From: Leptothoe kymatousa TAU-MAC 1615
GTDB taxonomy: Bacteria; Cyanobacteriota; Cyanobacteriia; Phormidesmidales; Phormidesmidaceae
DNA: 64,000 bases
Direction of reading: 5' to 3'
NCBI RefSeq assembly: GCF_018739865.1
Contig: NZ_JADOER010000004.1
Span: 501,067 to 565,066 of the forward strand
Shown: positions 4,066 through 52,236 of the stretch, piece after piece
Position numbering within the stretch: the first letter of the stretch is position 1
Layout of the letters: each line of letters opens with the position of its first letter
The notes under the pieces: model-generated
Databases searched by the model: none
What the model was told of the DNA's origin: nothing
Seen by the model: only the letters and a program-made list of their open reading frames with translations
Translations under genes and position numbers: made by a program

Positions 4066-6378
4066 TCAGTCCCGGGGCGGCAGGGCTTGAATCGTTAGCA
4101 TCGAATCAACAATGTTCTGCCGTTGCGAATCTTCTAATAGGGAACGGGTCATACAGGTGGAGAATAGCTTGGTCACATTGTAGTAAGCATGGAGTTTGTC
4201 TTTTTGCTTTTGGGTTAACTCTATCGCGCAAGGCATTTGAAGCTTTTGCATAAATGTGATGATCCGTTCTCTCCAATAGCTTTGTTTGGATTGCCACCAT
4301 TCCGCCGGGGTATCGAAGGCTCTTTTTTGCTGAGGTATAAACTTCAACCATCCTCTGATAACTTCAGCATTTTGGTGATCGTCTAGGAATAGTTGCTCCA
4401 ACCGTTGCAGGGAGGCCATGAAACTTTCTGGTGTTTTCATCCCTTTTTCGAAGGCGTAAAAGGTTTTATAAACACACTCATGGATTTCTAGAACCTTGCC
4501 ATCAATCATGCTGGTGGCGAATTCAAAATCTGGTAGATCGAAATATTTGTATATCAGCCCCCGATTGGTGACACTGCCTGTCTCTTTGAGGGCAGAGACA
4601 AAGTACCAGGCACGGGCATATACCTCGAGATGGGGCTGTCTTGAGTCTAAGGATTGAGATGTGCCCATTGCAGTTTCATTGACCATAGCCAGGAACTCTA
4701 CGAGGCTTGTGTCTTCAGCAACCATGGCATCGGCTCTATGTTTAAACTCACGGAAAAAATCCCATAGGGCTCTATCGGAAAGCGATTCTGAGATTAACCC
4801 AATCACAAAATGCCAGCGGTTTTTCTCGAGATGATTGAAGACTTCTGGATACTGCCCTGTGCTTACCAGATTGTCGGCGGTGAAAAACTCCTGGTAGGTT
4901 AAGTGGGAAAACGTACAAAAGTTATCTGCCCAGCGTACTAGTAACCCGTTGGAATTTTCAATGCCTTGTAGGATCTTTCGGGTTGGGACTAAACTCCTAT
5001 TTTCGTTGTAATTTGTTGCGTAATAGTCCTGGATTATTCGCTCTACCTCTAGTGTGGGAAAGATGATCCGACGCTTTAGAAAAAAGTGATTGGCCAGCTT
5101 AGATAGGATATTGCGGACATCGACTTCCCGCAGCATGGCGAAGGTCGTTGTTCCGTGTGCGATCGCAATATTTTTGCGCGTCATCAGGTCAATGCCCCGC
5201 CGGAAGACCTCAAAGCGCCTATTGGGAAGAGCGGCCTGATTCTCAAAGACAACACATAGCAGATCGAGCAAAATAGGCCGCTGGGAAAGCTCTCGTATTC
5301 CCCGGTATGTCTTCGAACGCAATGTTTTAAGCATTTGCGCGGCCAGCTGTCTATCCTTGTCTGGTTGACTAAACCAATTCTCGACAAACTGCTGGATCTG
5401 TCGTTTCTGTAGGGGGGCAATAATAACCTGCTGAAACCCTTCAGAAAAAGGAAACTCACGCCCTAAACGAGAACTAAAAATAAATCGGCACTGGCCGTAG
5501 TGATGCAGCAAGCGTTCAAGCTCGGCTTCAATCCGTTCTCGCTCTCCGGATGCGGTTTCATCAATGCCATCAAAAATAAAAATGGCCTGGCCAGATGCTA
5601 AAATTTCACGCCGCTCCGCATGACTACAGTTCCATTCGCTAAATCGTTGCTCAATCCATCCTTGGAGAGTGTCATGGCCAGAAACAGAAGCAAACCATCG
5701 TGCCCCAATAAAAATCGGAACAAAATCCTGCAAAATCTCTCTCTGGGCACACTTGAGGGTAATCCACTGTAGGCACGTTGTTTTGCCAGAGCCCGGATCC
5801 CCATAGACAAAAACATTGTGATGATCCCCGATGACTTCTTTAATTGCGCGTTTTTTACCCCGCAGCAACTGGACGCCAATGCGGTCAAAGTCCTCGTCCG
5901 TAAGACTTGCGCTATTCACCAGGGCATGGGGATCTGCCACAGGCGGATATTCCGACGGTAACGCCTGGACTTCAATTAAATAAAGCTCAATAAAGTCCCT
6001 AGTGAGTTTTCGACTCAGTTGCTGGGTATTGGCGCGTCTTTGTTTAGCAAAAAACGTTGTAGCTATTTGTTTACGAATCCTGTCAATGCATGGATCGATG
6101 CCCAGGACGTAATCTCCTTGGACACAGGCCTCATGCCACTGGACCTGAAAAAAAACGCAAATAGTCTCTACATTTTCTCGCAGTCCCTTGTAATTATCTA
6201 TGGTTAAGATGCGGCGAATCGTGTCATCACTAATTTTGGCATCATCACTTCTGATTTCATTGATTGCTTCCCATGTCCCCTTAAAGTGCCGTCTTGGAAA
6301 TCTTGATTTTGCCTCCTCTAAAAATTGTTTACGATATTCTGGTTTGAGTGTCAGATAAGCGTAGATGTTTTCGGACAT
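4066..6378 (-). CDS. NACHT-domain STAND NTPase with an unknown ~160-aa N-terminal domain and a ~350-aa helical C-terminal region. No WD40, TPR or pentapeptide repeats
   Basis: 770 aa. Walker A motif VFVYGDPGSGKTTCLQW. NACHT-like Walker B region (IFIFDGIDE). Stand-alone gene with its own upstream region. Confidence 0.75.
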   Translation of the reverse strand: MSENIYAYLTLKPEYRKQFLEEAKSRFPRRHFKGTWEAINEIRSDDAKISDDTIRRILTIDNYKGLRENVETICVFFQVQWHEACVQGDYVLGIDPCIDRIRKQIATTFFAKQRRANTQQLSRKLTRDFIELYLIEVQALPSEYPPVADPHALVNSASLTDEDFDRIGVQLLRGKKRAIKEVIGDHHNVFVYGDPGSGKTTCLQWITLKCAQREILQDFVPIFIGARWFASVSGHDTLQGWIEQRFSEWNCSHAERREILASGQAIFIFDGIDETASGERERIEAELERLLHHYGQCRFIFSSRLGREFPFSEGFQQVIIAPLQKRQIQQFVENWFSQPDKDRQLAAQMLKTLRSKTYRGIRELSQRPILLDLLCVVFENQAALPNRRFEVFRRGIDLMTRKNIAIAHGTTTFAMLREVDVRNILSKLANHFFLKRRIIFPTLEVERIIQDYYATNYNENRSLVPTRKILQGIENSNGLLVRWADNFCTFSHLTYQEFFTADNLVSTGQYPEVFNHLEKNRWHFVIGLISESLSDRALWDFFREFKHRADAMVAEDTSLVEFLAMVNETAMGTSQSLDSRQPHLEVYARAWYFVSALKETGSVTNRGLIYKYFDLPDFEFATSMIDGKVLEIHECVYKTFYAFEKGMKTPESFMASLQRLEQLFLDDHQNAEVIRGWLKFIPQQKRAFDTPAEWWQSKQSYWRERIITFMQKLQMPCAIELTQKQKDKLHAYYNVTKLFSTCMTRSLLEDSQRQNIVDSMLTIQALPPRD

Positions 6379-18655: not shown

Positions 18656-19432
18656 GTGTTTGGCATAGGCAACAGTGTGCATGTGACGGGCAGGAATGTG
18701 GAGGAATCAGCGATCGTGGTTTCGTTAGCTATACATCAAACAACAACAGAATTTAAGGCAATAACGGCTAAGCAATTTTTAATCCTCAAAAAAATTAAAC
18801 GCTATAGTCGTGAACGTCTTCGTCTAGATAGGTTTGTCCGCGCGCTTCCCCATTCGCCACGAGCTCGACAGCAAGACGTTTACCGATTGCAGCGGGAGAT
18901 GCAAGAGCTTCGAAACCACTGTGTAAAACTCCTAGAGGAGAACCAGCGGTTAGCCTATGAAGTAAACCACGATAGTCTTACGGGGCTATATAATCGTCGA
19001 TATTTTGACAACTATTGTCCACAGGCCTGCCAAACCGCTGCGGCCATGGGGCATCAACTATCACTCTTAGTGCTGGATATTGACCATTTTAAGGCGTACA
19101 ACGATACCCATAGCCATCAAGCCGGAGATCAATTGTTGCAGAGGCTCGGTCAGTATTTGTTGGCGCAGGTACAAACAGCTGAAAATTGTGTTGCCAGATA
19201 TGGTGGCGAGGAATTTGTAGTGGTGTTGCCTCGACATGATTTTGCTGCTGCGTATGCCATTGCCCAAACTATTCAGACTATTGTTAGTACATTCAATATT
19301 ACTGTGTCCATTGGAATTGCCTGTTATGGTATTGATGGAGCAACACCTAAGGATTTGTTCTCCTGTGCAGATCGACGTCTCTATGCAGCTAAACAAAATG
19401 GTCGAAATTGCATTGTGGGGTCTATGGAATAG
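18656..19432 (+). CDS. GGDEF-domain diguanylate cyclase with an N-terminal coiled coil
   Basis: LTGLYNRRYFD…LLVLDIDHFKAYND…RYGGEEFVVVLP…ADRRLYAAKQNGRNC. Canonical GGEEF active site. Confidence 0.85.
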   Translation: MFGIGNSVHVTGRNVEESAIVVSLAIHQTTTEFKAITAKQFLILKKIKRYSRERLRLDRFVRALPHSPRARQQDVYRLQREMQELRNHCVKLLEENQRLAYEVNHDSLTGLYNRRYFDNYCPQACQTAAAMGHQLSLLVLDIDHFKAYNDTHSHQAGDQLLQRLGQYLLAQVQTAENCVARYGGEEFVVVLPRHDFAAAYAIAQTIQTIVSTFNITVSIGIACYGIDGATPKDLFSCADRRLYAAKQNGRNCIVGSME

Positions 19433-19543
19433 GCCCACACCTATAAATTGTCGCTGATACTGTGTGATCTGTTGCACAAGCTTGTATGACACAGCTTACA
19501 GCGTATGTGATTTTTGCTGGTATGGCACTCTGTTTTCAATAAG

Positions 19544-19580
19544 AAACCCCTGTGGGCCTATGGCCCACAGGGGTTTCGGT
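19544..19580. terminator. Perfect 15-bp-stem hairpin (AAACCCCTGTGGGCC-TAT-GGCCCACAGGGGTTT) followed by a T-rich tract. A probable intrinsic terminator downstream of the GGDEF gene
   Basis: Inverted repeat read directly from the sequence. Confidence 0.6.
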
Positions 19581-20212
19581 TTAGTTATAGAGGGTTCAGA
19601 ATAAAGGGGTCAGTCTAGATATAGGGTTAGGTATAGGGGGTAATGCAATAAAGGTTTCTGTCTATGAATCTACTATAGGCAACGGGGGTAGAGGTGTCTC
19701 TGTTTGGCAATAATACCTATGGTCTGCTCACACAAGCATCAATTTTTGGGTGATTGTGCTGATGATCACAGCCAGGGATTGTAAATAGTTAGGCGCCACC
19801 GTACATTTACTGCACTTTTGTAGATGCAAAGGTACGTCTTCGGCCAAGTGGCTGAAAAAAAGACAGATTGTGTTGCTGACCTATCTACTCAATTCTGTGT
19901 GTTAATAACAGCTTTAAACTCTTTAGGGAATTAGTCTCGCTGCTAGCACTGAACTTTATCTACAAGCTCCACAATTTCCTAGATGATTTAGCGGAGCGGC
20001 ACTGCTTTAATGGATACAACGCTTTTCAAAGCTCTTTGAGCTAAATCCATTTGCCGCTTGCTGTTAAGAAATGCTGGCTTAATTAGGAGGATATCGTCAT
20101 GGTGTCCTGCTGGTTCGTGGTCGGGTGAGAACATTCATCAAAAGTTTTCTCAATCTTTAGGCTCCAGCGCTTTTTTGGCAACGGCTATTATCCATTCATG
20201 AGGGCATCCAAA

Positions 20213-20353
20213 ATGCAAAATAATCAATCCAATACTCAAGCTCAGAAACCATCTCAGCCGCTTTGGCAAACACTGACGACCGCACAGCAAGAAATCATTA
20301 AAGGCAGTGCAGGTCCTCACTTTAGACAAGGTATCCCCAATCGACGTGGTTAA
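20213..20353 (+). CDS. Small peptide P1 (46 aa), member of a tandem four-gene leader-peptide-like family
   Basis: MQNNQSNTQAQKPSQPLWQTLTTAQQEIIKGSAGPHFRQGIPNRRG. GAGGG lies 9 nt upstream of the ATG. Shares N-terminal and LWQxLTxxQQE motifs with P2-P4. Confidence 0.55.
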   Translation: MQNNQSNTQAQKPSQPLWQTLTTAQQEIIKGSAGPHFRQGIPNRRG

Positions 20354-20423
20354 TTTGAAGTCCTGGCTTGATGTCGTTCCAAATTTGATGGTTCAGCGGT
20401 TCTAATTTACGAGACTCAAAAAA

Positions 20424-20591
20424 ATGAACAATAGTCAATCCTCTGCTCAGATGCAGGGCAAATCTAGTCAGGCCCAAGCCAAACCTGCCAAGTTTTGGCA
20501 GCCATTAACCGTTGCCCAGCAGGAAGCTATGCAAGGTGGATATCGCCATGGACGTCCCATTCGGCGTGGTGAGGTCCCTACTTATTATTAA
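20424..20591 (+). CDS. Small peptide P2 (55 aa), same family
   Basis: MNNSQSSAQMQGKSSQAQAKPAKFWQPLTVAQQEAMQGGYRHGRPIRRGEVPTYY. The conserved leader-like region ends in Gly-Gly. Confidence 0.55.
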   Translation: MNNSQSSAQMQGKSSQAQAKPAKFWQPLTVAQQEAMQGGYRHGRPIRRGEVPTYY

Positions 20592-20662
20592 TGGGTTTAG
20601 GGCGAACAGCTTAAAACTCTTCTAAAGTCTGGTTTCATATTCCCTGTATAAGGTTATTTAAG

Positions 20663-20836
20663 ATGCAAAACGATTCATCTTATGCTCCATTAAAGAGCAT
20701 GTTTTCTAAATCCCAAACCATATCCCAATCTCTTTGGCAACCGCTCACAGTCGAGCAGCAGGAAGTCACGAAAGGTGGATATTCTCGTGGAATTATTATG
20801 CCGCCAAATCGTCGTGGGACTCCTGGGGGCCATTAG
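20663..20836 (+). CDS. Small peptide P3 (57 aa), same family
   Basis: MQNDSSYAPLKSMFSKSQTISQSLWQPLTVEQQEVTKGGYSRGIIMPPNRRGTPGGH. Confidence 0.55.
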   Translation: MQNDSSYAPLKSMFSKSQTISQSLWQPLTVEQQEVTKGGYSRGIIMPPNRRGTPGGH

Positions 20837-21202
20837 AAAAGACTTAAACTGGCTGCTTTGGACTTATTTGTTGAGGGGGGGCATTCCATCGATAGTTCTT
20901 TGAAGTTATGGGATTAATTAAGGGCTTGTTAAAAAATAAAATCATGACCTTGTTCCTTGACATCATGGCTTAACAAGCCTTTTAGAACTAAACCATGAAG
21001 TAGTTTCTTAACAGATCCTAGCATGAACAAATAGCCAGCCCGTTCAACGAACTGCCTCCTCTGGTACTGCGTTCCAAAGGGGGCAGTCAACTATTCAGGG
21101 TGATACATCATCTCAGTGGTCTTGCAAGGGTGCACTTTATCTAGGTCATCTACGTGGATGATTTTGCTTTATTTTTTTGTTTTTTACAACACCTAACTGG
21201 CC

Positions 21203-21349
21203 ATGCGAAACAATCAAGACATGTCTCAAGCTGAAAACGCATCCGATAGCCTTTGGCAGCCGCTCACAGTTTCACAGCAGGAAACTACCAGGGGTGGTTG
21301 CTGTTGGCTCAGATGGTTTTATTCGCAGTTATATATTCGTCGTGGTTAA
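21203..21349 (+). CDS. Small peptide P4 (48 aa), same family. It is in a different frame from the track ORF 21177..21365
   Basis: MRNNQDMSQAENASDSLWQPLTVSQQETTRGGCCWLRWFYSQLYIRRG. The conserved motif supports this frame over the track ORF. Confidence 0.5.
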   Translation: MRNNQDMSQAENASDSLWQPLTVSQQETTRGGCCWLRWFYSQLYIRRG

Positions 21350-21663
21350 TTCTTGCTTAACGTGAGGCCATAAGCCTGGTTTCGTGGGTTCAAATGGCCC
21401 ATTTCTGGTGTTTTTGTGGTTCTCGTGACGTTTTTAGAAACTCTCGTGGCGAATTTGTCATGCTACCTAGTCGATTGTCTTCTTTTCGTCGATTGTGTTT
21501 GTTAGGGGCAATTGCCCTTTGACCCATAGCGCATGAGGAATTGTGATTCGTTATATCAGCGGCTGTATGGAAACATTCCGTGCAACCGCTGTTGTTTGTT
21601 GGCTTGCTTGCCAACAAGGGCACTTTAGGTAGAAATGTCTATCTGACTTTGAGGCTGGAGCCT

Positions 21664-24321
21664 ATGCGACTCTACCAAGCTTATTCTAGATGGCGGGCAT
21701 GTCTAAGTTTTATAGGCGTGTTAATGATAGCTAACCCTGGCTATGCACAAACTCAAGTCTCAGGGGATGGCACCGTTGGCACGTTGGTCAATGGTGCGTT
21801 GTCTTCAGCTTGCAATACGGGTGTGTGCTCCATTACGGGAGGCACTACCGTTGGCAACAGTCTATTCCACAGCTTTGATCAATTTTCTCTTCAGGCTGGT
21901 GATCAAGCTCAGTTTGAGAATATAGGGGTCGATGCTATTTTTAGTCGGGTAACGGGGGGCATCTCTTCGATTGATGGCATTATTAGTACGACTACGACGG
22001 CCCCGACAGATATTTTTCTTCTAAATCCCCAGGGGATTATTTTTGGTGCTAACGCATCTCTCAATATTGGCGGTTCTTTTCTGGCCAGTACGGCAGATAC
22101 TATGGTGTTTGATAATGGTGCTGCATTTAGTGCCAGTAACCCCACACAGCTAGGTGGTCTTTTAAGCATTAGCACCCCTGTGGGTTTGCAGTATGGTACC
22201 AATCCGGGGGGGATCGAGCTACAGGGCCCTGGACATCAAATGAGCCTATCTCCTTTCTTTGAGTTTGTGCGCACGAACCGACCTGATGGTTTACGGGTAA
22301 ATAGTGGAGAAACCCTTGCACTTTTAGGCGGTCCCGTTACGCTCAATGGTGGCAATGTGACGGCCTTTGGTGGCAATGTTGAGCTTGCGAGCGTCGGTGG
22401 CAATAGTGTGATTGGGCTGCAGCAAAACGATTGGCAGTTTGACTATGCCCAAGCGGCTAATGTGCAAGATATTACCCTGGGCAATGCTAGCTCTGTGGAT
22501 GTTAGTGCAGCGGATGGTGGCTCTGTAAATGTCCGTGCTGGCAACCTATCTTTGGTGGATGGCTCAGTCATTGCGGCTAATCTGCAAGGTCCAGGTACAG
22601 GGGGGGGGATCACGATTGAAACCGATAGCATTTTGGTGCGCGATCGCAGTGGCGACATCAAAAGTGGTTTATACAGTGATGTGGAATTTCCCGCCACAGG
22701 TCAGGGGGGGGATCTCACTATTCAAACCCAACAACTTTCTGTGCTAAATGCCGGTGAACTCTCTGCAAATACCTACTGGGACGGCAACACAGGTAACGTC
22801 TACGTACAGGCCGATACAATCACCATGACCGGCGAGAGTTTTATTGTTTCATTTGGTGATTTTGCCGCCTTTGGTAACACCGGGGATGTCACCGTGACAG
22901 CCAACATCATTGACCTGCGAGACGGTGCCCAAATTGCCACGACAAACCTTGGCGCTGGGGCCACAGGTGTGATGCGGGTGAATGCAGATCAACTATTTTT
23001 CCAGGGGTCTAGTGCTGATGGCATTACCCAAAGCGGTTTAGAGTCCATAGGCCGCATTAGCGATGGTGGCACCATCCTTGTTGATGCAGATACTATCCAA
23101 ATGTTAGATGGCGGGTTGATTGCCGCCAGCACCTTTGGCAGTGCCCCAGGGGGAGATATCACCATTAGCGCCAATAGCCTAAATGCCACTGGGGGTACCC
23201 CCAATGGCGGGCCCAGTGGTGTGCTTAGTTCTGTGTTGCCCAATGGCATTGGCGATGGTGGCAACGTCTTGTTAATGGTGGATCAAATTAGCTTAGCCGA
23301 TGGCGCTAATGTGGGGGTGAATACCTTCGGCGATGGCAATGCCGGTAGTCTTACCATCAATGCCCAGACCATTGACCTTGCCGGGGCGGCTGCAGACGGC
23401 CGCACCGCGATATTAGCCAATGCCATTGAGGGGAGTGGTAATGGTGGAAATATTGATATTACTGCCCAGCAAGTGAATATTCGCGATGGTGCAACGATTA
23501 CCGTGGGCAACTTTCAAACCGTGGGTAATGCAACTCCAGGGCAGGGGGCACCGGGCAACATTACCTTGGTGGCCAATGGGTTGTCGCTCAATAACGATGC
23601 AACAATTGAGGCCGATACGATTGCCGCCAATAACAACCTAGGTAATATTGTATTAAATTTAGACACCCTGACCTTACAACAGGGGAGCCGCATTAGCACC
23701 AATGCCCAAGGTAGTTCCACGGGGGGAAATATTACCATTGATGCTACTATCGCCCTGATTGCAAAAGACAACAGCGATATTTCCGCCAATGCGCAGCAGG
23801 GGGCAGGGGGGCGCATTGTGGTTAATGCCAGCCAAATTTGGGGCACCGAATTTCGGCCCCAGCTCACCCCAGACAATGACATTACCGCAAGTTCTGACCT
23901 CGGGCCTAGCTTTGGGGGCACCGTTGAGCTAAATACCTCCTATCTTGAACCTACCCAGGGGGTGGCGACACTGCCCGCCGCAACGGTAGATGCTGACCAG
24001 CAAGTCGCCCGCCAGTGTTCGGTTGATGATGCCAATTCGTTGGTCGTTAGTGGTCGGGGTGGGGTTGCCGATGACCCCACCCAATCCCTCAGAGACAATC
24101 ATGTTTGGGCGGATTTGCGCCTGCCTGCCCCAGGTCTGTCCCAGGTAAGTGCATTGCCGGACTCTGTAACTGTTGCCGCAAACCAGCTTGCTCCCTCGGA
24201 GGGCGATCGCCTGGTGGAGGCCCAAGCACTCGCCATGGAAGATGGACAGATACAGCTAGTGGCATCAACACAGAGGGAAACCAGTTTTTCAAAAGCAGTA
24301 ATCTGTGGTGCCGAGGCTTAA
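21664..24321 (+). CDS. Filamentous-haemagglutinin N-terminal (TPS) domain exoprotein, TpsA-like, with a parallel beta-helix repeat body. The start is taken at MRLYQAY… (signal peptide)
   Basis: A signal peptide (…VLMIANPGYAQTQ), then TPS-domain motifs (NSLFHSFDQFSL…FLLNPQGIIFGANASLNIGGSFLASTAD), then Gly/Asn-rich beta-helix repeats. Confidence 0.75.
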   Translation: MRLYQAYSRWRACLSFIGVLMIANPGYAQTQVSGDGTVGTLVNGALSSACNTGVCSITGGTTVGNSLFHSFDQFSLQAGDQAQFENIGVDAIFSRVTGGISSIDGIISTTTTAPTDIFLLNPQGIIFGANASLNIGGSFLASTADTMVFDNGAAFSASNPTQLGGLLSISTPVGLQYGTNPGGIELQGPGHQMSLSPFFEFVRTNRPDGLRVNSGETLALLGGPVTLNGGNVTAFGGNVELASVGGNSVIGLQQNDWQFDYAQAANVQDITLGNASSVDVSAADGGSVNVRAGNLSLVDGSVIAANLQGPGTGGGITIETDSILVRDRSGDIKSGLYSDVEFPATGQGGDLTIQTQQLSVLNAGELSANTYWDGNTGNVYVQADTITMTGESFIVSFGDFAAFGNTGDVTVTANIIDLRDGAQIATTNLGAGATGVMRVNADQLFFQGSSADGITQSGLESIGRISDGGTILVDADTIQMLDGGLIAASTFGSAPGGDITISANSLNATGGTPNGGPSGVLSSVLPNGIGDGGNVLLMVDQISLADGANVGVNTFGDGNAGSLTINAQTIDLAGAAADGRTAILANAIEGSGNGGNIDITAQQVNIRDGATITVGNFQTVGNATPGQGAPGNITLVANGLSLNNDATIEADTIAANNNLGNIVLNLDTLTLQQGSRISTNAQGSSTGGNITIDATIALIAKDNSDISANAQQGAGGRIVVNASQIWGTEFRPQLTPDNDITASSDLGPSFGGTVELNTSYLEPTQGVATLPAATVDADQQVARQCSVDDANSLVVSGRGGVADDPTQSLRDNHVWADLRLPAPGLSQVSALPDSVTVAANQLAPSEGDRLVEAQALAMEDGQIQLVASTQRETSFSKAVICGAEA

Positions 24322-45951: not shown

Positions 45952-48900
45952 ATGGGCCGTCGAAACTTTAATTGGCAAAGAATCAAGCAGCGTCCGCTCA
46001 ACTATTTCATGTCGAGCGTTCTGCGATGGCTGATGTTGCTGTCAAAAACTGCCAAAACATCAAGTGCAGGTTTTGTATTGCCAACTACGGTGCTACTGCT
46101 ACTAGTGGTTAGCTTGACCATGGGAGCCCTCAGCTTCCGATCTTTTAGTCGAGTTGAACGCACCATCGCGATCCGTGATCAAAAAATTGTTGATAGTTTT
46201 GCCGCACCAGCCATCGATAGGGCCAAAGCGAAACTAGAGTATCTATTTACCCAAGACGATCGGGTTGCTACCAAGCGGCCGCCTTCTAGCGATGACCTTT
46301 TCCAGGCCCTAACTTCCCAGACGGCTTCAGGTTCTGCAGTAGATCCCTACACCCTGCCAGATGAAACTGCTCTTGATATTGATGGAAATCCTGGTGTTGA
46401 TCCGGCATGGTCATTTGAGTTTGAAGGCAACACTGTTGTCTATTCTTTGCTAGTCGCCCATGAAAGACCGGTTCTTGGTGGTGGTACCGGAACGGTTTCT
46501 TTATCCAATGATGATGCTTCAGCCAAAGCAGAGGTCTTAGTTACTCGCAATGCTCCGATCACCACAACAGATGGCGGCTTTGGCTGTGCTATTTCTCGTT
46601 TAGCTGGTGATGGGTGGCAAGAAGGCCCCTCAAATCTTCAAAAGAATTTTCAGGTCAATGTGTTGACCATTAAGGGGGCTGGTGGACCGAACAAAACTGT
46701 TAGCGCAGCTGAATATCAGCAGGTGCGTAGTTCGCCAAAGGGTAATAAATTTGGGGCATATTTCAGATATGACCTAGATATCTCTCCTGGTGATCCGTTC
46801 CGGTGGAATGGTGCAATGCATTCGGAGTCTAATGTTATTGCAGGGCGAAATTTACAGGCCTATCTAGTTAGTTCCCCCGAGTCTTGTATTTTCAGTCCAG
46901 ATAGCTCTGAAATTACCATTAGCGAATCTGATTTTGATGGCGATGGTACGGGCGATTACAGGGGCAACTTAATTGCCGGTGTTGTTCGAGATAATGCTTT
47001 TGATATCGATGATGCCGTCAGATTTCATACGGATGCAGCGCTCGATGCAGCTGGCAATGTGACTGTAACCGAAGTCAACTTTGATGAAACAATAGATTCA
47101 GTTAATGCTAGTAATAATGCTCAGAATCTAGATGATACCTATGCCGATCCGGTTCAAATTTTTACGGAAGACGTGACGAAGCAGTTAGATGGCAGTACTT
47201 GGACTGCTGTGTACCCTATTGGTGATACGACCAAAAAGCTGTTAGACGATCGTGTTCTTAATAAAGATGACACTACCCGTCCGTTCTTGGATGATGGGTA
47301 TAGAGCGGATGATAGATATGGTCCCAAACCCCGCTATAACGCCTCGAAAGACTTGGCTGGTAATCTTATTGGCGCACAGATTCCGCTTTCTGATGTTGAG
47401 TTAACGGGCTTTGATAAGGCGGCTGGGGAATATGGCCTTGATGGCTATTGGGAAAGACGTTCTATTGCTGAAGGTTTGAGGGTTATTGTTGGTCAACGCT
47501 TAGAGCTGGGTAATCAGTTTGGTTGGAAAGGTCAAGAAGCTGATCCGAACGATAACGATCCTCTTTATCCGCCTGCTACGATCACTGAACTAGTCAGGAA
47601 CAATGATGGTAAGCGATTGAAAGGTCCTTCTGAAGCCAGGCAGCAAAAAAGCTTGCGGGATAACCTTTCGGCCGTTCAGGGAATGGTGGCTTATCACTAT
47701 TCCGTCAATGATGGTGAGATTCCATACTTTTGTATGGCGTCGACGGTGCACCCAGGGACTCAACAGTCTCTAATTGACAGCCGAACGTTTAATAATTATC
47801 CATCTCCTGCTGCTCGTAAAGAAATCAATTTCTTTACAGGGCACGGTACTAACGGTTGGGAATTTAATTTTCCCTATACAGCTGGTGACTATGCCAGTGG
47901 TCAACCCTTGGGCGATGCCTTGAGAAACCTTAAAAATTTTGCTGGAGATCCTCAAGGGGGGGCGCCGTCCTTTACTCCCGTCCAAGGAGAACAAGGGCAG
48001 CCAGATGAGTTTGTTCATCCTTATCCCTATTTGGCTATGTGGGGAGACTTTTCAGTTCTGCGACGTATTTTGGATTTGGGTACTCCCTATAGCGATCTAA
48101 GCCCTGCTGATAAATCAACCCTTGATAGCACTGCTTGCACCCTTGGTATGCTGGCAAGAAATGTTGAGGATCTGAAGGAGGAATATACCGCTATTACCTC
48201 AGATGGTGCCGTTTTAGATGATATTGCAACGGCCCTTGGTACGGTTACTCCTGGTGGTCAGGCAAGTGAGTGGTTAGCTCCGTTACCTGACCCAGACGAT
48301 CCGTTGACAACAGCAACTGATGCTCTGTTGACTCGGAGAGCTAGGGTTCTAGCCTTGTATCGACAAATTGTTCGCGACAGAAGGTTTGGTTTCCTAGTCC
48401 CAATTACAAATACATGTGTAGCAGCCACTGATTTTGCTAATGCTTCTGCAGCTAATCAGACTAAGTTGATGGATGCGTTTTGCTCCACTGCTCAACTGCC
48501 AGCGTATCCATCTCTTTACTATGTATTGCCTGAATTTAAGCATGAACAGGCCGGAGATGATGGCACTACAGGTACAGCAGGATATGCAACTTTTGACACC
48601 ACTCAGCCAGCTGGCGAGGAGTACATATCTGAAGGAGGGGCGGCTACCAAGTATGTTTTTGATACTGCCGTAACCACTGATGTGAATAATGCAGTTGTTT
48701 ACGAGGCCATTGATACAAGTCTTCTGGATTTAACTCCTGCTGCATCACCTAATGATTTTCAGCAACCAACTGCTTCTGGCGGTGGTTTAGTTGCCCCCAA
48801 TGACTTTGCTTCTACAACGGCAACAGATGATGAAATTCGTAAGAGTCTTACCCAGAGTGAAATTAAGGATGGGGCAACTGTCTATGAACTTGCATTTTTA

Positions 48901-50481
48901 GACAAGGCAATGATGGATGGTCGTCAGCAAATTAATGTAAGAGTTTTAGATCTGGACATTGGTAAGCTGACCCTGGATAAGCCAGCTGCATTCGGCAAGG
49001 ATTCAAGTGGTCTAGATGTTACTTGGATTCCTGAAGAAGAAGGTCTTTTTTATGCTGCTCGGGAAGATGCTGTGCGAGAGGATAGCGTTGTTCGCCCAAG
49101 ACGAGATACTTGGGCGAACTGTCAGAACTTTGCGAACCTGCAAACTGGCAACTGCACCATGGATATTGAACCAACTCAAGCAAATCAGGTTGGGACCTAC
49201 GACCCTCCTCTCAATTCAACAAACTCCATTAGTCCTAAGCCGGTTGATATGTATCCAGACCCAGACCGACGCCCCCATGGTTTTCGACTGGTGAATGGAT
49301 ATAACTTGAACCGTTCAGGTGATGATAAAGCAGCCGGCATATCTTTTATTACCGATAATCCGGCCTATATCTACGGGGACTTTAACCTGCATCAATCCTA
49401 TGGTACTCCAGTAGATCCAGCGACTGGGACCCCTACGGTGATTGAGGAATTTACCACCACCCTTGATACCACCTTTGCATCTTATGGTACTGGTAATGCT
49501 GATCGAACAGCTGCCAAAAACCTCTTTTACGGTCGAGACACCTTAGACACTAGATTCGCGGATGGTGACGAAGATACTTGGAGAGCGGCTGAAATTTTTG
49601 CAGATTCCATCACTATCCTTTCTAATGAATTTAGGGATGGCTGGATAGAAGATGCCTACATACACGGCATTGGAGCTTCAGTAGGGGTACCAAAAGTTGC
49701 CTCCTCCTATGTCAACTACAACCGCTCCAATAAAACGGCTGATGAGAGTCCAGATCGTTGGCTACGGGAAGATAGCATTGATGCTGCTCAATGTGACACT
49801 GCCACTGGTGGCGATTGTTCTTTACCAATTCGGTTTAATCGAAACGGGGTATCTAAAGGTTGGAAGAATAGTGCTGCAACCGGCCTCCCTGCCATAACCT
49901 GTGCAGCTAGTGCATTTGGGGACTATCCAAACTGTTTTAATAACGACTTTATCGATGTTAATGACACATCAATAAGTAAGACAGCCCCAAATGACATTGC
50001 AAATGCCATTAAAGAAGAGCGTCAAAAAAATCAGGTGACTCCACCAGATAATGTGCGTGTGAATGCTTTGCTGGTTGCTGGTATTGTTCCAATGCGTCAA
50101 AACCAGACCTACGGTGGCATTCAAAACTTTCCAAGACTATTGGAGTATTGGGAAAATAAGAACCTGATTATTTCAGGCGGTTTCTTCCAGTTGAACTTTA
50201 GTACCCAAGCAACAGCTCCCCAGGATCAGGATGCTTGGGAGCCTGGAGCTGTACCCATAGCAGGATTGAACAAAAACCCTTTCTACAACCCAGCTAAACG
50301 TATTTGGGGTTATGACGTGGCTTTCCAATACACCAGTGTGGCGCCCATTGCCCAGAGATTTGTCTCGGTGGGTCGTCCTCGAAGTGAGTTCTATCGTGAG
50401 CTACCTCTAGATGATGCTTACATTCAAAATTTGTGCGCAGCTACAGATGCTGGTGGCAATGCTGTAATTTCCTGCAATTAG
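45952..50481 (+). CDS. Giant (1509-aa) secreted or membrane-anchored protein, an HpsA-like candidate. The N-terminal hydrophobic segment is weakly prepilin-like, and the protein is Gly/Asp/Thr/Asn-rich with no enzymatic motif
   Basis: N-terminus …SSAGFVLPTTVLLLLVVSLTMGALSF. Long low-complexity extracellular-type sequence. Immediately followed by four pseudopilin genes in the same orientation. Confidence 0.6.
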   Translation: MGRRNFNWQRIKQRPLNYFMSSVLRWLMLLSKTAKTSSAGFVLPTTVLLLLVVSLTMGALSFRSFSRVERTIAIRDQKIVDSFAAPAIDRAKAKLEYLFTQDDRVATKRPPSSDDLFQALTSQTASGSAVDPYTLPDETALDIDGNPGVDPAWSFEFEGNTVVYSLLVAHERPVLGGGTGTVSLSNDDASAKAEVLVTRNAPITTTDGGFGCAISRLAGDGWQEGPSNLQKNFQVNVLTIKGAGGPNKTVSAAEYQQVRSSPKGNKFGAYFRYDLDISPGDPFRWNGAMHSESNVIAGRNLQAYLVSSPESCIFSPDSSEITISESDFDGDGTGDYRGNLIAGVVRDNAFDIDDAVRFHTDAALDAAGNVTVTEVNFDETIDSVNASNNAQNLDDTYADPVQIFTEDVTKQLDGSTWTAVYPIGDTTKKLLDDRVLNKDDTTRPFLDDGYRADDRYGPKPRYNASKDLAGNLIGAQIPLSDVELTGFDKAAGEYGLDGYWERRSIAEGLRVIVGQRLELGNQFGWKGQEADPNDNDPLYPPATITELVRNNDGKRLKGPSEARQQKSLRDNLSAVQGMVAYHYSVNDGEIPYFCMASTVHPGTQQSLIDSRTFNNYPSPAARKEINFFTGHGTNGWEFNFPYTAGDYASGQPLGDALRNLKNFAGDPQGGAPSFTPVQGEQGQPDEFVHPYPYLAMWGDFSVLRRILDLGTPYSDLSPADKSTLDSTACTLGMLARNVEDLKEEYTAITSDGAVLDDIATALGTVTPGGQASEWLAPLPDPDDPLTTATDALLTRRARVLALYRQIVRDRRFGFLVPITNTCVAATDFANASAANQTKLMDAFCSTAQLPAYPSLYYVLPEFKHEQAGDDGTTGTAGYATFDTTQPAGEEYISEGGAATKYVFDTAVTTDVNNAVVYEAIDTSLLDLTPAASPNDFQQPTASGGGLVAPNDFASTTATDDEIRKSLTQSEIKDGATVYELAFLDKAMMDGRQQINVRVLDLDIGKLTLDKPAAFGKDSSGLDVTWIPEEEGLFYAAREDAVREDSVVRPRRDTWANCQNFANLQTGNCTMDIEPTQANQVGTYDPPLNSTNSISPKPVDMYPDPDRRPHGFRLVNGYNLNRSGDDKAAGISFITDNPAYIYGDFNLHQSYGTPVDPATGTPTVIEEFTTTLDTTFASYGTGNADRTAAKNLFYGRDTLDTRFADGDEDTWRAAEIFADSITILSNEFRDGWIEDAYIHGIGASVGVPKVASSYVNYNRSNKTADESPDRWLREDSIDAAQCDTATGGDCSLPIRFNRNGVSKGWKNSAATGLPAITCAASAFGDYPNCFNNDFIDVNDTSISKTAPNDIANAIKEERQKNQVTPPDNVRVNALLVAGIVPMRQNQTYGGIQNFPRLLEYWENKNLIISGGFFQLNFSTQATAPQDQDAWEPGAVPIAGLNKNPFYNPAKRIWGYDVAFQYTSVAPIAQRFVSVGRPRSEFYRELPLDDAYIQNLCAATDAGGNAVISCN

Positions 50482-50494
50482 TAGAGGTTGTTCA

Positions 50495-51211
50495 ATGATT
50501 TTGAAAAATTGGCTTCAGTACCGACGAAAGCAACAGATGTTTGATATACCTTCGCATGGTGACGTGCTGGATACTAATAACCAAGGACTTACTTTGATTG
50601 AGTGTTTGGTGGCTATTGCAGTCATAGGTATTTCCATGGCTGTTACGGCTCCTATGATTGTTTTGTCAGTTGCGACACGCACCCAAAGTCAACGGGCCGA
50701 TCAGGCTTTGCAAATTGCCCAAGCCGAGGTGGATCGCATCAGGTTTACCGTTATTAATAACGATACGTATGCTGTTTCGGCTGCAACGGTGGCGGTTAAT
50801 AGTGTGGGTAATTTTGTGGCTGTTGCAGCACCAGAAGATATTAATAACGCTGCTTACTCCACAACATCAGCTGCAGCAAAAGGAATCGATGTCGATGGGG
50901 ATGGTAACCCAGATTATGCAGCTCAGATTTTTAAGACCGTTGGCAGTACTGTTGGTACAACGCCCGTAGCGTTTGACCTTGGCGTTAGAATTTACGATGC
51001 TGATGCGGTTAATACTAAAACGAGTGCTCAGCTAGATGTAGACCAAGCGCGAATTGGTCTGACCAGTGGTGAAGGGCAAAGAGGTACGAAGCCACTATCA
51101 GTTATATATACGAGTGTTATTAAAAGTGACACATCTCGATCCCTCTGCGACTATCACAACTTTATTGATAGTGTGCAGGGCACAACAACTTCGTCCCCAT
51201 CTCAGTGTTAA
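50495..51211 (+). CDS. Prepilin-type N-terminal cleavage/methylation domain protein (pseudopilin). The start may be at 50537
   Basis: Class III signal NNQG|LTLIECLVAIAVIGISMAV. Confidence 0.7.
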   Translation: MILKNWLQYRRKQQMFDIPSHGDVLDTNNQGLTLIECLVAIAVIGISMAVTAPMIVLSVATRTQSQRADQALQIAQAEVDRIRFTVINNDTYAVSAATVAVNSVGNFVAVAAPEDINNAAYSTTSAAAKGIDVDGDGNPDYAAQIFKTVGSTVGTTPVAFDLGVRIYDADAVNTKTSAQLDVDQARIGLTSGEGQRGTKPLSVIYTSVIKSDTSRSLCDYHNFIDSVQGTTTSSPSQC

Positions 51212-51237
51212 GCAACGATTTCATTGAAATTTACATC

Positions 51238-52236
51238 ATGGCAAAGTCTAATTTTCGCATGTTGCTTTACAAGGTCCTATTGCAGACTAAAGGTCGGCAA
51301 ACCTCTTCCAATCTAGGGTTTACTCTGATTGAGTTGTTGGTTTCCATTGTCATCGCAGGGATAGTGGTATCGGGGCTGCTTTTTGTTGTGGTTGAGCTAC
51401 TTCGCGTAGATCAACGCGAAGTAGCTCTAGATCAGGTTCAAAGCGATATGCAACGGGCCATAGACTATATTGCCGATGACCTCAAAGAAGCCATTTATGT
51501 CTATAGCACTCCTGCAACTGTTACTTCTCAGCTGGTTAATTTAGATAATGATATAACCACTAATAATGGAGTTCCTGTCTTAGCCTTTTGGCGCACCGAT
51601 CCCATTGAGGCTGCTGAAATAGCGTCTCTACCATCAGGCTCTGAACCCGATGGCTGTCCTACAGGTGACACGGCCTGTTCTGCAATTAAGGCGCGTAGGG
51701 CAAGTTATACCCTAGTGGCGTATTACCAAACCGAGGAGTATGGGGCTTGGGAAGGAAATCCACTAAAACGTTATGAGTTGGCTCAGTATGATGATTTAGC
51801 CGCAGGATACGACCTAACACCAGGTTTTACAGCACCCTTTAATGCGGCAGGAAGTGCTAACGATTTTGCTGGTTGGACTGCTTCTGGTACGGGGGATGAT
51901 GGTACTCGAAATGTGTTAGTCGATTACGTATCAGCTATTAAAAACACGACTAATGATGCGCCTAATCCAGTGGTAGATTGCCAAGCTTTCACAGATGATT
52001 CGGCCCATGTACTCTCTCCTGCAGATGCCACTGAGAATACGGGATTTTTTGCTTGTGTAAGACCAACGACCGTAACGGGTACGGGAGGATTTAGAACTAA
52101 TCAGGATGTGTTTCTTTTCTTGAGGGGAGATGCAACCCCGGCTAGTAGTTTTTTGCAGCCTGCGAGTGCGGGCAGCCGATTGCCTATCTTACAAACTCAA
52201 ATTAAGTTAGGCGGTGTGATTGATCGAGATGAGTAG
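51238..52236 (+). CDS. Pseudopilin (prepilin-type N-terminal domain protein)
   Basis: SSNLG|FTLIELLVSIVIAGIVVSG. Start taken at the MAKSNF Met to avoid overlap. Confidence 0.7.
   Translation: MAKSNFRMLLYKVLLQTKGRQTSSNLGFTLIELLVSIVIAGIVVSGLLFVVVELLRVDQREVALDQVQSDMQRAIDYIADDLKEAIYVYSTPATVTSQLVNLDNDITTNNGVPVLAFWRTDPIEAAEIASLPSGSEPDGCPTGDTACSAIKARRASYTLVAYYQTEEYGAWEGNPLKRYELAQYDDLAAGYDLTPGFTAPFNAAGSANDFAGWTASGTGDDGTRNVLVDYVSAIKNTTNDAPNPVVDCQAFTDDSAHVLSPADATENTGFFACVRPTTVTGTGGFRTNQDVFLFLRGDATPASSFLQPASAGSRLPILQTQIKLGGVIDRDE

What the first reader, a model, noticed from the sequence alone, without database searches (positions are those of the whole stretch)
20213..21349. Tandem array of four paralogous small peptide genes with a conserved leader-like N-terminus, a Gly-Gly junction and hypervariable Arg-rich tails ending in RRG
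Four unannotated ORFs of 46-57 aa lie head-to-tail on the plus strand. Three of the four have no counterpart in the ORF track (all are under the 60-aa floor), and the fourth is in a different frame from the track ORF 21177..21365. They are spaced 70, 71 and 366 nt apart. All begin M-(Q/N/R)-N-(N/D/S)-(Q/S)-(S/D). All share a central block (L/F)WQ(P/T)LT(V/T)xQQE followed 3-4 residues later by GG (GSAG in P1). Their C-termini then diverge completely (SAGPHFRQGIPNRRG, YRHGRPIRRGEVPTYY, YSRGIIMPPNRRGTPGGH, CCWLRWFYSQLYIRRG), but every one keeps a basic RRG motif. A conserved leader with hypervariable tails in tandem paralogues is the architecture of double-glycine-leader bacteriocin, RiPP or signalling-peptide precursors such as prochlorosin-type cassettes. 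The spacing L(-12)/T(-11)/hydrophobic(-4) relative to GG loosely fits the class II double-glycine leader consensus. A shared C-terminal RRG bracket is unusual for such families and could mark a second processing or recognition site. No PCAT, LanM or cyclodehydratase partner is in the window. The nearest exporters are the RND pump (24.9-29.5 kb) and the DevBCA operon (59.4-63.8 kb), and the immediate downstream gene is a TpsA-like exoprotein. This looks like an undescribed peptide family.
Basis: partly seen in the sequence, partly recalled or inferred. Interest (0 to 1): 0.8.

Follow-up and report, generated by a model that had tools for sequence, protein, structure and literature searches.

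The report
Secreted-peptide gene array linked to exoprotein
Four real but mostly unannotated small genes in the cyanobacterium Leptothoe kymatousa encode precursors of short secreted peptides. They belong to a rare peptide family that always sits just upstream of one clade of large surface/secreted (TPS-domain) proteins, and in related genomes also next to a dedicated peptide-cleaving exporter.

Summary
The four ORFs exist exactly as described: P1 20213-20353, P2 20424-20591, P3 20663-20836 and P4 21203-21349, all on the + strand.

**They are genuine coding genes.** Syntenic arrays in related assemblies keep each paralogue, tail included, with dN/dS of 0.09-0.37.

**The family is very small.** A search of 1.84 billion representative proteins found 8. 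None of the four hits any Pfam or NCBIfam model.

- In every locus with enough sequence, the peptides lie just upstream, on the same strand, of an orthologous ~870-900 aa TPS-domain exoprotein.
- Where the TPS orthologue is 50-59% identical, homologous peptide arrays are flanked by a divergently transcribed C39-peptidase ABC transporter (PCAT) plus a HlyD-type adaptor.

The double-glycine-leader reading is therefore supported.

The tails are paralogue-specific, not hypervariable. P1-P3 share an aromatic-R-x-G…P-x-R-R-G motif. RRG is clade-specific.

**Open point.** The window has no PCAT, and no orthologue from L. kymatousa appeared, so the export route in this genome is inferred. What the mature peptides do (14-18 aa, net charge +3, rich in Arg, Gly and Pro; P2 and P4 also in aromatic residues) is unknown.

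I rate it a new variant of a known kind, of moderate interest.

The parts
19836..20020 (+). Conserved non-coding block upstream of P1, a candidate promoter/operator. Its core, ACTTTATCTACAAGCTCCACAATTTCCTAGATGATTTAGCGGAG, lies at 19953-19996.
   Evidence: 84% identical to L001 and about 70% to L004, which is higher than the adjacent coding DNA. The same block precedes both peptide genes in L044. Its function is inferred. No sigma-70 consensus was found.
20213..20353 (+). P1, a 46-aa precursor: 32-aa leader ending in KGS, then the predicted core AGPHFRQGIPNRRG.
   Evidence: ORF. Orthologues in L001 and L002 have KGG. dN/dS 0.09-0.28. AlphaFold2 predicts a helix at residues 23-31, just before the junction, at low confidence.
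20424..20591 (+). P2, a 55-aa precursor: 39-aa leader ending in QGG, then the core YRHGRPIRRGEVPTYY. It is the only one of the four that carried an NCBI source (hypothetical protein) in the protein search.
   Evidence: P0002, Leptothoe kymatousa. Orthologues. dN/dS 0.24-0.32.
20663..20836 (+). P3, a 57-aa precursor: 39-aa leader ending in KGG, then the core YSRGIIMPPNRRGTPGGH.
   Evidence: Orthologues P0003 and P0004. dN/dS 0.22-0.37.
20920..20982 (+). 13-bp-stem hairpin inside a roughly 100-nt element (20921-21018), within the window-specific extra DNA of the P3-P4 spacer.
   Evidence: Fold energy -23 kcal/mol, z -2.7. 81% identical, in inverted orientation, to a segment just 3' of the TPS gene in L044. 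The spacer is only 178 nt in L002. Its role is unknown, and there is no U-tail.
21134..21164 (+). Partial copy of the upstream motif (CTTTATCTA...GATGATTT), ahead of P4.
   Evidence: Weak on its own, because three other loose matches occur on the + strand of the window.
21203..21349 (+). P4, a 48-aa precursor: 32-aa leader ending in RGG, then the core CCWLRWFYSQLYIRRG.
   Evidence: Orthologues in L002 and in L004/L044, always the last peptide before the TPS gene. dN/dS 0.16-0.31.
21557..21602 (+). Conserved stem-loop (21557-21591) followed by a U-rich tract, lying between P4 and the TPS gene. Candidate terminator or attenuator.
   Evidence: Fold energy -25.3 kcal/mol, z -3.9. Present in L002, L044 and twice in L003. 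94% of cells are paired and 3 pairs carry compensatory changes, in only 5 sequences.
21664..24321 (+). TPS-domain (TpsA-like) beta-helix exoprotein of 885 aa counted from ATG 21664, with a Sec-type signal peptide. It is the conserved downstream partner of the peptide array.
   Evidence: Pfam PF05860, E 2.3e-40. 100% identical to a Leptothoe kymatousa protein. Orthologues follow the peptide genes in L003, L004/L044, L045, L046 and L047/L048. The start codon was chosen by comparison with the L003 and L004 orthologues.

Best explanation
**What it is.** The four ORFs are translated genes for precursors of small secreted peptides.
- Each precursor has a 30-39 aa leader. A Gln/Ser-rich N-terminal part is followed by the recognition block (L/F)-W-Q-x-L-T-x-x-Q-Q-E-x-x-x-G-G.
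- Each has a 14-18 aa core with net charge +3, rich in Arg, Gly and Pro. P2 and P4 are also rich in aromatic residues.

**Proposed mechanism.**
1. The leader is bound by the C39 cysteine-peptidase domain of an ABC exporter (PCAT).
2. It is cut after the Gly-Gly (Gly-Ser in P1).
3. The core is exported through PCAT, a HlyD-type adaptor and an outer-membrane channel.

**Genomic setting.** The array belongs to a conserved module whose other constant member is the downstream TPS-domain beta-helix exoprotein.
- In one subclade the module also carries its own divergent PCAT and HlyD genes.
- In the subclade that includes this window, the peptides-plus-TPS unit stands alone. Export would then have to use a transporter encoded elsewhere.
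- A conserved stem-loop with a U-rich tail between P4 and the TPS gene would let peptide transcripts outnumber TPS transcripts.

**Likely role.** The extracellular peptides most likely act together with the TPS exoprotein at the cell surface, either in matrix or adhesion (like EbfG proteins) or in antagonism.

**Shown here.**
- The ORFs are under purifying selection.
- The family exists and is homologous across both subclades.
- It is linked to TPS in every informative locus.
- It is linked to PCAT/HlyD in the homologous loci.
- That PCAT carries the catalytic residues.

**Inferred.** Cleavage and export in L. kymatousa, co-transcription, attenuation, and any joint action with the TPS protein.
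For: **Real coding genes.**
- Syntenic orthologous arrays occur on L001, L002 and L004/L044.
- dN/dS is 0.09-0.37; pooled, 0.22 for the leader and 0.34 for the core.

**A coherent family.** The profile search recovers only these peptides.

**TPS linkage.**
- Window, L003/L006, L004/L044, L045, L046 and L047/L048. L002 reaches the start of the TPS region.
- All are on the same strand, 150-400 nt upstream.
- The outer flanking genes differ between loci.
- A TPS homologue at 38% identity (L049) has neither peptides nor a PCAT.

**PCAT linkage.**
- L045, L046, L047 and L048 have a divergent 714-aa C39-ABC transporter and a 440-aa HlyD/AprE adaptor beside 1-4 homologous peptides.
- Three further contigs probably carry both a PCAT and a TPS orthologue, judged from matching contig lengths.
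- hhalign of the window clade against the PCAT-linked peptides gives 98.3% probability, E 2.5e-14.
- The PCAT aligns end to end with PCAT1 (4RY2), E 1e-108, and keeps EEDCGAACL and GYHWVV.
- Motif-sharing Nostocales peptides also sit beside PCAT/HlyD genes.

**In-trans export is plausible.** One MAG carries both a PCAT-less locus (L003) and a PCAT-linked locus (L046).

**Transcript structure.** The stem-loop is conserved, with compensatory changes.
Against: - The 64-kb window has no C39 peptidase and no HlyD orthologue of the module.
- A search with the module's PCAT listed 120 proteins at 60% identity or more. None was labelled L. kymatousa, and none appeared in the clusters inspected.
- The genus paper reports no bacteriocin gene cluster in L. 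kymatousa TAU-MAC 1615 (PMC8225149).
- The leader departs from the textbook pattern. Position -7 is Gln, and position -4 is Thr in P3 and P4.
- No curated GG-leader model is hit.
- P1 has GS rather than GG.
- There is no expression or peptide data.
- No TpsB partner for the TPS protein is present in the window.
- Any functional coupling between the peptides and TPS rests on gene order alone.
Confidence: 0.7

Rival explanations
1. The peptides are RiPP precursors. The leader recruits tailoring enzymes that modify the core before export, in the manner of prochlorosins, triceptides or other Tyr/Arg/Cys chemistry.
For: The precursors have a leader-core architecture. The cores are rich in Tyr, Trp, Cys, Arg and Pro, which are common modification targets. 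P4-type cores start with an invariant CC. One locus (L045) has a radical-SAM/DUF3641 gene downstream of TPS. Another (L003) has an Asp/Arg-hydroxylase-like gene.
Against: No modification enzyme is conserved across the loci; the radical SAM and the hydroxylase each occur once. None of the four peptides hits any Pfam or NCBIfam model, including the curated RiPP-leader models. The only constant neighbours are TPS and, in one subclade, PCAT/HlyD.
Confidence: 0.1
2. The array in L. kymatousa is an orphan remnant. The peptides-plus-TPS unit was copied away from its PCAT. In this reduced sponge-associated genome the exporter has been lost, so the peptides are no longer processed or secreted.
For: There is no PCAT in the window and no L. 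kymatousa orthologue among the best PCAT hits. No bacteriocin cluster is reported for this strain. P1 has GG changed to GS, which its orthologues do not. Extra DNA is inserted between P3 and P4.
Against: Comparisons involving the window show no relaxation of selection relative to L001-L002 comparisons. The leaders are as constrained as the cores. All four ORFs are intact. GS and GA are accepted C39 cleavage sites; GA is documented for EbfG4 (PMC4997328), while GS rests on general knowledge. The PCAT list shown was cut at 120 hits, all at 60% identity or more, so a more divergent PCAT could have been missed.
Confidence: 0.12
3. The ORFs are not functional peptides. On this view they are upstream ORFs or non-coding repeats that regulate the TPS gene, or chance ORFs inside a repeat.
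For: They lie in the 5' region of the TPS gene, are mostly unannotated, and have weak Shine-Dalgarno sequences. Conserved non-coding blocks and a stem-loop are interleaved with them.
Against: dN/dS is well below 1 in the proposed frame, with many synonymous changes. The Gly-Gly junction and the paralogue-specific cores are conserved. Homologues sit next to a dedicated peptidase-exporter. Antisense and alternative-frame ORFs are not conserved in length.
Confidence: 0.03

Closest known systems
EbfG1-4 / PteB of Synechococcus elongatus PCC 7942 (PMC4997328)
   Same: EbfG1-4 are four tandem small genes with double-glycine secretion motifs in a cyanobacterium. Three of the four were originally unannotated. 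They are co-transcribed and depend on a C39-peptidase ABC transporter (PteB). Their products are extracellular and act at the cell surface or matrix.
   Different: Mature EbfG proteins are 6-7 kDa, whereas the cores here are 1.5-2.2 kDa. No EbfG-like protein was retrieved by the exhaustive profile search. The ebfG genes are adjacent to their PCAT, while in this window none is present. No TPS-domain partner is mentioned for ebfG in the sections of that paper I read.
Cyanobacterial double-glycine 'bacteriocin' clusters with a short-type PCAT plus HlyD (group III of Wang, Fewer & Sivonen 2011, PMC3140520)
   Same: The PCAT-linked relatives (L045-L048) have exactly this transporter pair, with small precursor genes nearby. 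Many such precursors are unannotated and occur in multiple copies.
   Different: That survey describes no TPS/haemagglutinin-type gene as a cluster member. This peptide family matches none of the NHLP, Nif11 or HetP-like groups. In the window clade the precursors are detached from the transporter.
CTB family bacteriocin (NCBIfam NF038167)
   Same: Nostocales peptides that share the WQxL(S/T)xxQQE...GG leader with this family hit NF038167 weakly through the leader region. CTB genes also occur as tandem arrays (PMC9846622).
   Different: The window peptides and the PCAT-linked Leptothoe-type peptides give no hit, even at E up to 10. The cores are unrelated. The Nostocales hits are below the curated cut-off.
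Class II microcins and Gram-positive GG-leader pheromones (ColV/CvaAB, ComC/ComAB)
   Same: These are unmodified peptides with an N-terminal leader cleaved after GG by a PCAT during export. Mature pheromones are of similar length, about 17 aa (general knowledge). The module's PCAT is homologous to PCAT1 and ComA.
   Different: The leader here is about twice as long and has Gln at -7. No immunity gene, histidine kinase or response regulator is conserved next to the array.

Membership tests
Double-glycine-leader peptides exported by peptidase-containing ABC transporters (PCAT substrates) | Gly-Gly (or Gly-Ala / Gly-Ser) at the leader-core junction | tested here: met
   GG in P2-P4 and GS in P1. 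GG in 26 of the 27 aligned family members.
Double-glycine-leader peptides exported by peptidase-containing ABC transporters (PCAT substrates) | Conserved leader with hydrophobic residues at -4, -7, -12 and -15 and a polar/acidic face. The published consensus is M(R/K)ELX3E(I/L)X2(I/V)XG(G/A), as quoted in PMC3140520. | tested here: inconclusive
   W at -15, L at -12 and S/T at -11 are near-invariant, and E at -6 is conserved. Position -7 is Gln, however, and position -4 is I, M, T, T in P1-P4. The same variant leader occurs beside catalytically competent PCATs.
Double-glycine-leader peptides exported by peptidase-containing ABC transporters (PCAT substrates) | A cognate C39-peptidase ABC transporter, usually with HlyD, encoded nearby or elsewhere in the genome | tested here: inconclusive
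   Not met within the window. No L. kymatousa orthologue was seen. Met for homologous arrays in L045, L046, L047 and L048. The whole genome could not be scanned.
Double-glycine-leader peptides exported by peptidase-containing ABC transporters (PCAT substrates) | Cleavage after GG and appearance of the core outside the cell | not testable with these tools
   Needs peptidomics or an in-vitro C39 assay.
Curated leader/precursor families (CTB family bacteriocin NF038167; also the NHLP, Nif11 and class II bacteriocin leader models, which I expect to be in these libraries) | Sequence match to the family's HMM at its curated cut-off | tested here: not met
   No relevant hit for P1-P4 in NCBIfam or Pfam at E up to 10. 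None for the PCAT-linked relatives either.
RiPP precursor cassettes (prochlorosin-type and others) | A leader-dependent modification enzyme (LanM, cyclodehydratase, radical SAM/SPASM, P450 and so on) conserved with the precursors | tested here: not met
   No such enzyme is shared by the loci. Single non-conserved candidates occur in L045 and L003.
EbfG/PteB biofilm-matrix GG proteins | Sequence homology of the mature region to EbfG1-4 | tested here: not met
   The exhaustive profile search returned only 8 proteins, all of this family. The paper states that mature EbfG1-4 have no homologues in other cyanobacteria. EbfG sequences were not compared directly.
Two-partner secretion system (for the downstream gene) | N-terminal TPS domain following a Sec signal peptide | tested here: met
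   PF05860, E 2.3e-40, residues 80-316 of the long ORF. A signal-peptide-like N-terminus is conserved in the orthologues (read by eye).
Two-partner secretion system (for the downstream gene) | A TpsB (POTRA/ShlB-type) transporter gene adjacent | tested here: not met
   No POTRA or ShlB domain in any large ORF of the window that was scanned, nor in the gene lists of L003, L044 and L045-L047.

The most novel reading that the evidence does not exclude
The small Arg/Gly/Pro/aromatic-rich peptides and the TPS beta-helix exoprotein could form a two-component extracellular system. The two components would leave the cell by different routes, PCAT type 1 secretion for the peptides and Sec plus type 5b secretion for the exoprotein. 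They would then work together outside the cell. Examples would be peptides that decorate, cross-link or activate a surface fibre, or a fibre that delivers peptide toxins. Such coupling between a PCAT peptide module and a TpsA-like protein has not been described. It would define a new kind of cyanobacterial surface or competition apparatus.
Probability: 0.25. Interest if true: 0.7.

Novelty: new variant of a known kind. Interest (0 to 1): 0.5.

Why it matters
- **Annotation gap.** The array adds a previously unrecognised family of secreted-peptide genes to a sponge-associated cyanobacterium that was reported to lack bacteriocin-type clusters. Transporter-anchored genome mining misses precursors that have moved away from their exporter.
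- **Testable gene-order rule.** GG-leader peptides lie upstream of one clade of TPS-domain exoproteins, with or without PCAT/HlyD. This links two secretion pathways that are normally studied separately.
- **A handle on unknown proteins.** The linkage gives a concrete way into the function of the abundant but uncharacterised cyanobacterial 'filamentous haemagglutinin-like' proteins.
- **Easy follow-up.** The predicted mature peptides are 14-18 aa and cationic, so they are cheap to synthesise. They could be tested directly for antimicrobial, adhesive or signalling activity in a host-associated marine setting.

Tried and rejected
- **Curated models.** Pfam and NCBIfam scans of the four peptides gave nothing relevant.
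- **Word-indexed protein search.** It returned only P1, P2 and two P3 orthologues. The exhaustive profile search was needed to reach further members.
- **JGI metagenome collection.** A profile-derived pattern gave 296 raw matches, none confirmed by tblastn. A stricter hand-made DNA pattern gave 0 matches.
- **Genome-collection DNA pattern.** It returned 37 stretches. Most were chance matches inside unrelated large ORFs or in non-cyanobacteria. The window's own genome did not appear, so that collection could not be used to look for a PCAT in L. kymatousa.
- **Rfam.** A scan of 19400-21700 found no riboswitch or known RNA; the hits were far below gathering scores. This included the idea of a c-di-GMP riboswitch suggested by the upstream GGDEF gene.
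- **GGDEF neighbour as part of the module.** Rejected, because it is absent from the syntenic L004/L044 loci.
- **RND pump and DevBCA-like operon as dedicated exporters.** They are not conserved next to the peptides in other loci, and neither has a peptidase domain.
- **Consensus promoter and terminator scan.** It found no convincing promoter in the array.
- **Upstream-motif copy ahead of P4.** The match is weak, since three other loose matches occur in the window.
- **AlphaFold2 model of P1.** Low confidence (pLDDT 67). It shows only a short helix before the junction.
Full report
**1.

The window carries four + strand ORFs: P1 20213-20353 (46 aa), P2 20424-20591 (55 aa), P3 20663-20836 (57 aa) and P4 21203-21349 (48 aa). 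They are separated by 70, 71 and 366 nt.

Their alignment has 13 invariant columns, including W, L-T, QQE, a Gly before the junction, and RRG. The leader motif occurs nowhere else in any frame of the 64 kb window. In the DNA alignment the conserved block varies mainly at third codon positions. None of the four peptides matches any Pfam or NCBIfam model, even at E up to 10.

**2. They are real genes**

The window comes from Leptothoe kymatousa. P2 is identical to an NCBI hypothetical protein of that species. The downstream 885-aa protein is 100% identical to an L. kymatousa protein.

Two short assemblies about 75-78% identical in DNA (L001, L002) and a more distant one (L004, the same as L044) carry the same genes in the same order. 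Each paralogue keeps its own tail:

| Paralogue | Window | Orthologues |
|---|---|---|
| P4 | CCWLRWFYSQLYIRRG | CCWLRWFYEQYYLRRG, CCWQRYWDAMLNYFRRG |
| P3 | YSRGIIMPPNRRGTPGGH | YYRRGIIMPPNRRGTPGGH, YSRGGIIMPPNRRGTPGDH |

Nei-Gojobori dN/dS for all 12 orthologue pairs is 0.09-0.37. Pooled values are 0.22 for leaders and 0.34 for cores. The tails are therefore paralogue-specific but constrained, not hypervariable.

P1-P3 also share aromatic-R-x-G…P-x-R-R-G. RRG becomes WRG or VRG in P2 orthologues and is absent in a more distant genome.

**3. The family is very small**

- A profile search of 1.84 billion representative proteins found 8 proteins.
- Two scans of the JGI metagenome collection found none.
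- Further members lie in a Leptolyngbyaceae MAG, with three copies, two of them from a recent tandem duplication (L003/L006).
- Others lie in L004/L044 and, more divergent, in L005.

**4. The downstream TPS-domain gene is a constant partner**

In the window, L003, L004/L044 and the start of L002, the last peptide gene is followed on the same strand by an orthologous TPS-domain protein of about 885-900 aa (68-73% identical). The outer flanking genes differ between loci. The GGDEF gene upstream in the window is absent from the syntenic L004/L044 loci. It is therefore not part of the unit.

**5. Related loci supply the missing exporter**

I looked up TPS orthologues at 50-59% identity, making no use of peptide sequence. 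The loci were L045 (Leptothoe sp. PORK10 BA2), L046 (a second locus of the same MAG as L003) and L047/L048. All show the same layout:

HlyD/AprE-type adaptor (440 aa) and C39-ABC transporter (714 aa) on one strand, then, divergently, 1-4 small ORFs, then TPS.

The small ORFs have the same leader, LW(Q/N/T)xL(T/S)xx(Q/E)(Q/E)E..(K/N)GG. Their cores include FGFPGFPGGP…, FYYYYDNRSCCYYY and CYPCYDYRYYSYYYYY.

- hhalign of the window clade against these peptides gives 98.3% probability, E 2.5e-14.
- The transporter aligns end to end with PCAT1 (4RY2, E 1e-108). It keeps the catalytic Cys (EEDCGAACL) and His (GYHWVV) motifs.
- Matching contig lengths suggest three further contigs carrying both a PCAT and a TPS orthologue.
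- A TPS homologue at 38% identity (Leptolyngbya NIES-3755, L049) sits in the classical TPS-CHAT context, with no peptides and no PCAT. This is a single control.

**6. Independent support for the leader**

A DNA pattern for WQxL(S/T)xxQQE…GG, run over one genome per species, picked up small Nostocales ORFs. Those in Anabaenopsis and Tolypothrix lie directly beside PCAT (and HlyD) genes. One in an uncultured bacterium lies beside HlyD. The motif was selected for; the adjacency was not. These peptides hit the NCBIfam model 'CTB family bacteriocin' weakly and below its cut-off. The window family does not hit it at all.

**7. Anatomy of the transcription unit (inferred)**

- A strong terminator follows the GGDEF gene at 19543-19577.
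- A non-coding block at 19836-20020 is more conserved than the coding DNA. In L044 it precedes both peptide genes. A weak partial copy precedes P4.
- The long P3-P4 spacer contains about 230 nt that L002 lacks. This includes a hairpin element that in L044 lies, inverted, just 3' of the TPS gene.
- Between P4 and the TPS start there is a stable stem-loop with a U-rich tail (21557-21602; -25 kcal/mol, z -3.9). It is conserved in four genomes, with three compensated pairs. The sample is small. A terminator or attenuator that favours peptide transcripts is a reasonable reading, but it is not demonstrated.

**8. Predicted products**

Cutting after GG (GS in P1) gives cores of 14-18 aa, 1.56-2.15 kDa, each with net charge +3. 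Across the family the cores are enriched in Gly (16%), Arg (12.6%), Pro (11.8%), Tyr (9.5%) and Phe (7.1%). The leaders are rich in Gln, Ser, Lys and Thr. AlphaFold2 gives only a short helix just before the junction, at low confidence.

**9. What remains open**

- The window has no C39 peptidase and no orthologue of the module's HlyD.
- No L. kymatousa orthologue was seen among the 120 best PCAT hits or the cluster members inspected.
- The genus paper found no bacteriocin cluster in this strain (PMC8225149).
- The MAG that carries both locus types shows that a PCAT-less array can coexist with a PCAT elsewhere. The leaders in the PCAT-less clade are still constrained.
- I therefore favour export in trans, but for this genome it is an inference.
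- No modification enzyme, immunity gene, sensor kinase or TpsB is conserved with the array. The role of the peptides is therefore undecided between antagonism, signalling and matrix or adhesion (like the EbfG1-4/PteB system, PMC4997328).
- No paper in the searched library contained all three terms 'two-partner secretion', 'double-glycine' and 'cyanobacteria'.

**10. Verdict**

The kind is known: PCAT-type double-glycine precursors are widespread in cyanobacteria (PMC3140520). This peptide family is new. Its fixed association with one clade of TPS exoproteins, with the exporter either attached or detached, is a new arrangement.

- Novelty: new variant of a known kind.
- Interest: 0.5.

Noticed in passing
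window 18656-19432 and 19543-19577: A GGDEF diguanylate cyclase gene is followed by a perfect 16-bp-stem terminator, directly upstream of the array. The gene is absent from the otherwise syntenic L004/L044 loci (XFP - DAO - DUF2811 - peptides - TPS). It is therefore a lineage-specific insertion or loss, not part of the module.
   Followed up: partly
window 20921-21018; L044 12715-12814: A roughly 100-nt hairpin-containing element lies in the P3-P4 spacer. It is 81% identical, in inverted orientation, to a segment just downstream of the TPS gene in a related genome. It could be a small mobile element or a relocated terminator.
   Followed up: partly
L003 9131-9346 and 9959-10165 (Leptolyngbyaceae MAG CBDHHL010000032.1): A recent tandem duplication of about 830 bp copies a peptide gene together with its upstream region and the downstream stem-loop. 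The leaders are nearly identical, but the cores already differ (YRSRGGLGRIDILGGFPW against YRGHGRRPSPLRPGG).
   Followed up: partly
L046 373-4523 and 12741-19777; L047 1317-5470: The PCAT-linked loci contain a second PCAT (746 aa), a second adaptor and a protein of about 210 aa. L046 also has a second, convergent TPS-domain gene (761 aa) and a 1401-aa RTX/lectin/laminin-G protein. Together these form a larger secretion island.
   Followed up: no
L005 378-473, 571-753, 876-1094 (Logan ERR4592244): A second, more divergent array has Pro/aromatic-rich cores. It includes a copy whose ORF lacks the N-terminal part of the leader (…QQQEIAKGGFYFPGYLPPRRRGSAPPEP) but carries an RRRG motif. It comes from a sequencing run numbered next to the one holding the exact L. 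kymatousa P1/P2 contig. No TPS gene lies on this short contig.
   Followed up: partly
window 45952-52236: A 1509-aa ORF with no Pfam match is followed by two genes with prepilin N-terminal methylation motifs. This looks like a minor-pilin cluster with a large unknown component.
   Followed up: no
window 4066-6378 (- strand): A 770-aa NACHT-domain protein with a NACHT C-terminal helical domain, that is, a STAND-type NTPase.
   Followed up: no
L012 5208-5513 and 5547-7712; L018 4906-7050 and 7853-7999: Nostocales GG-leader peptides have the same WQxLxxxQQE…GG block but unrelated cores (for example …GGALDAFSCIG). They lie directly beside PCAT genes and hit the NCBIfam CTB bacteriocin model only below its cut-off. 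This suggests a broader leader superfamily that current models cover poorly.
   Followed up: partly
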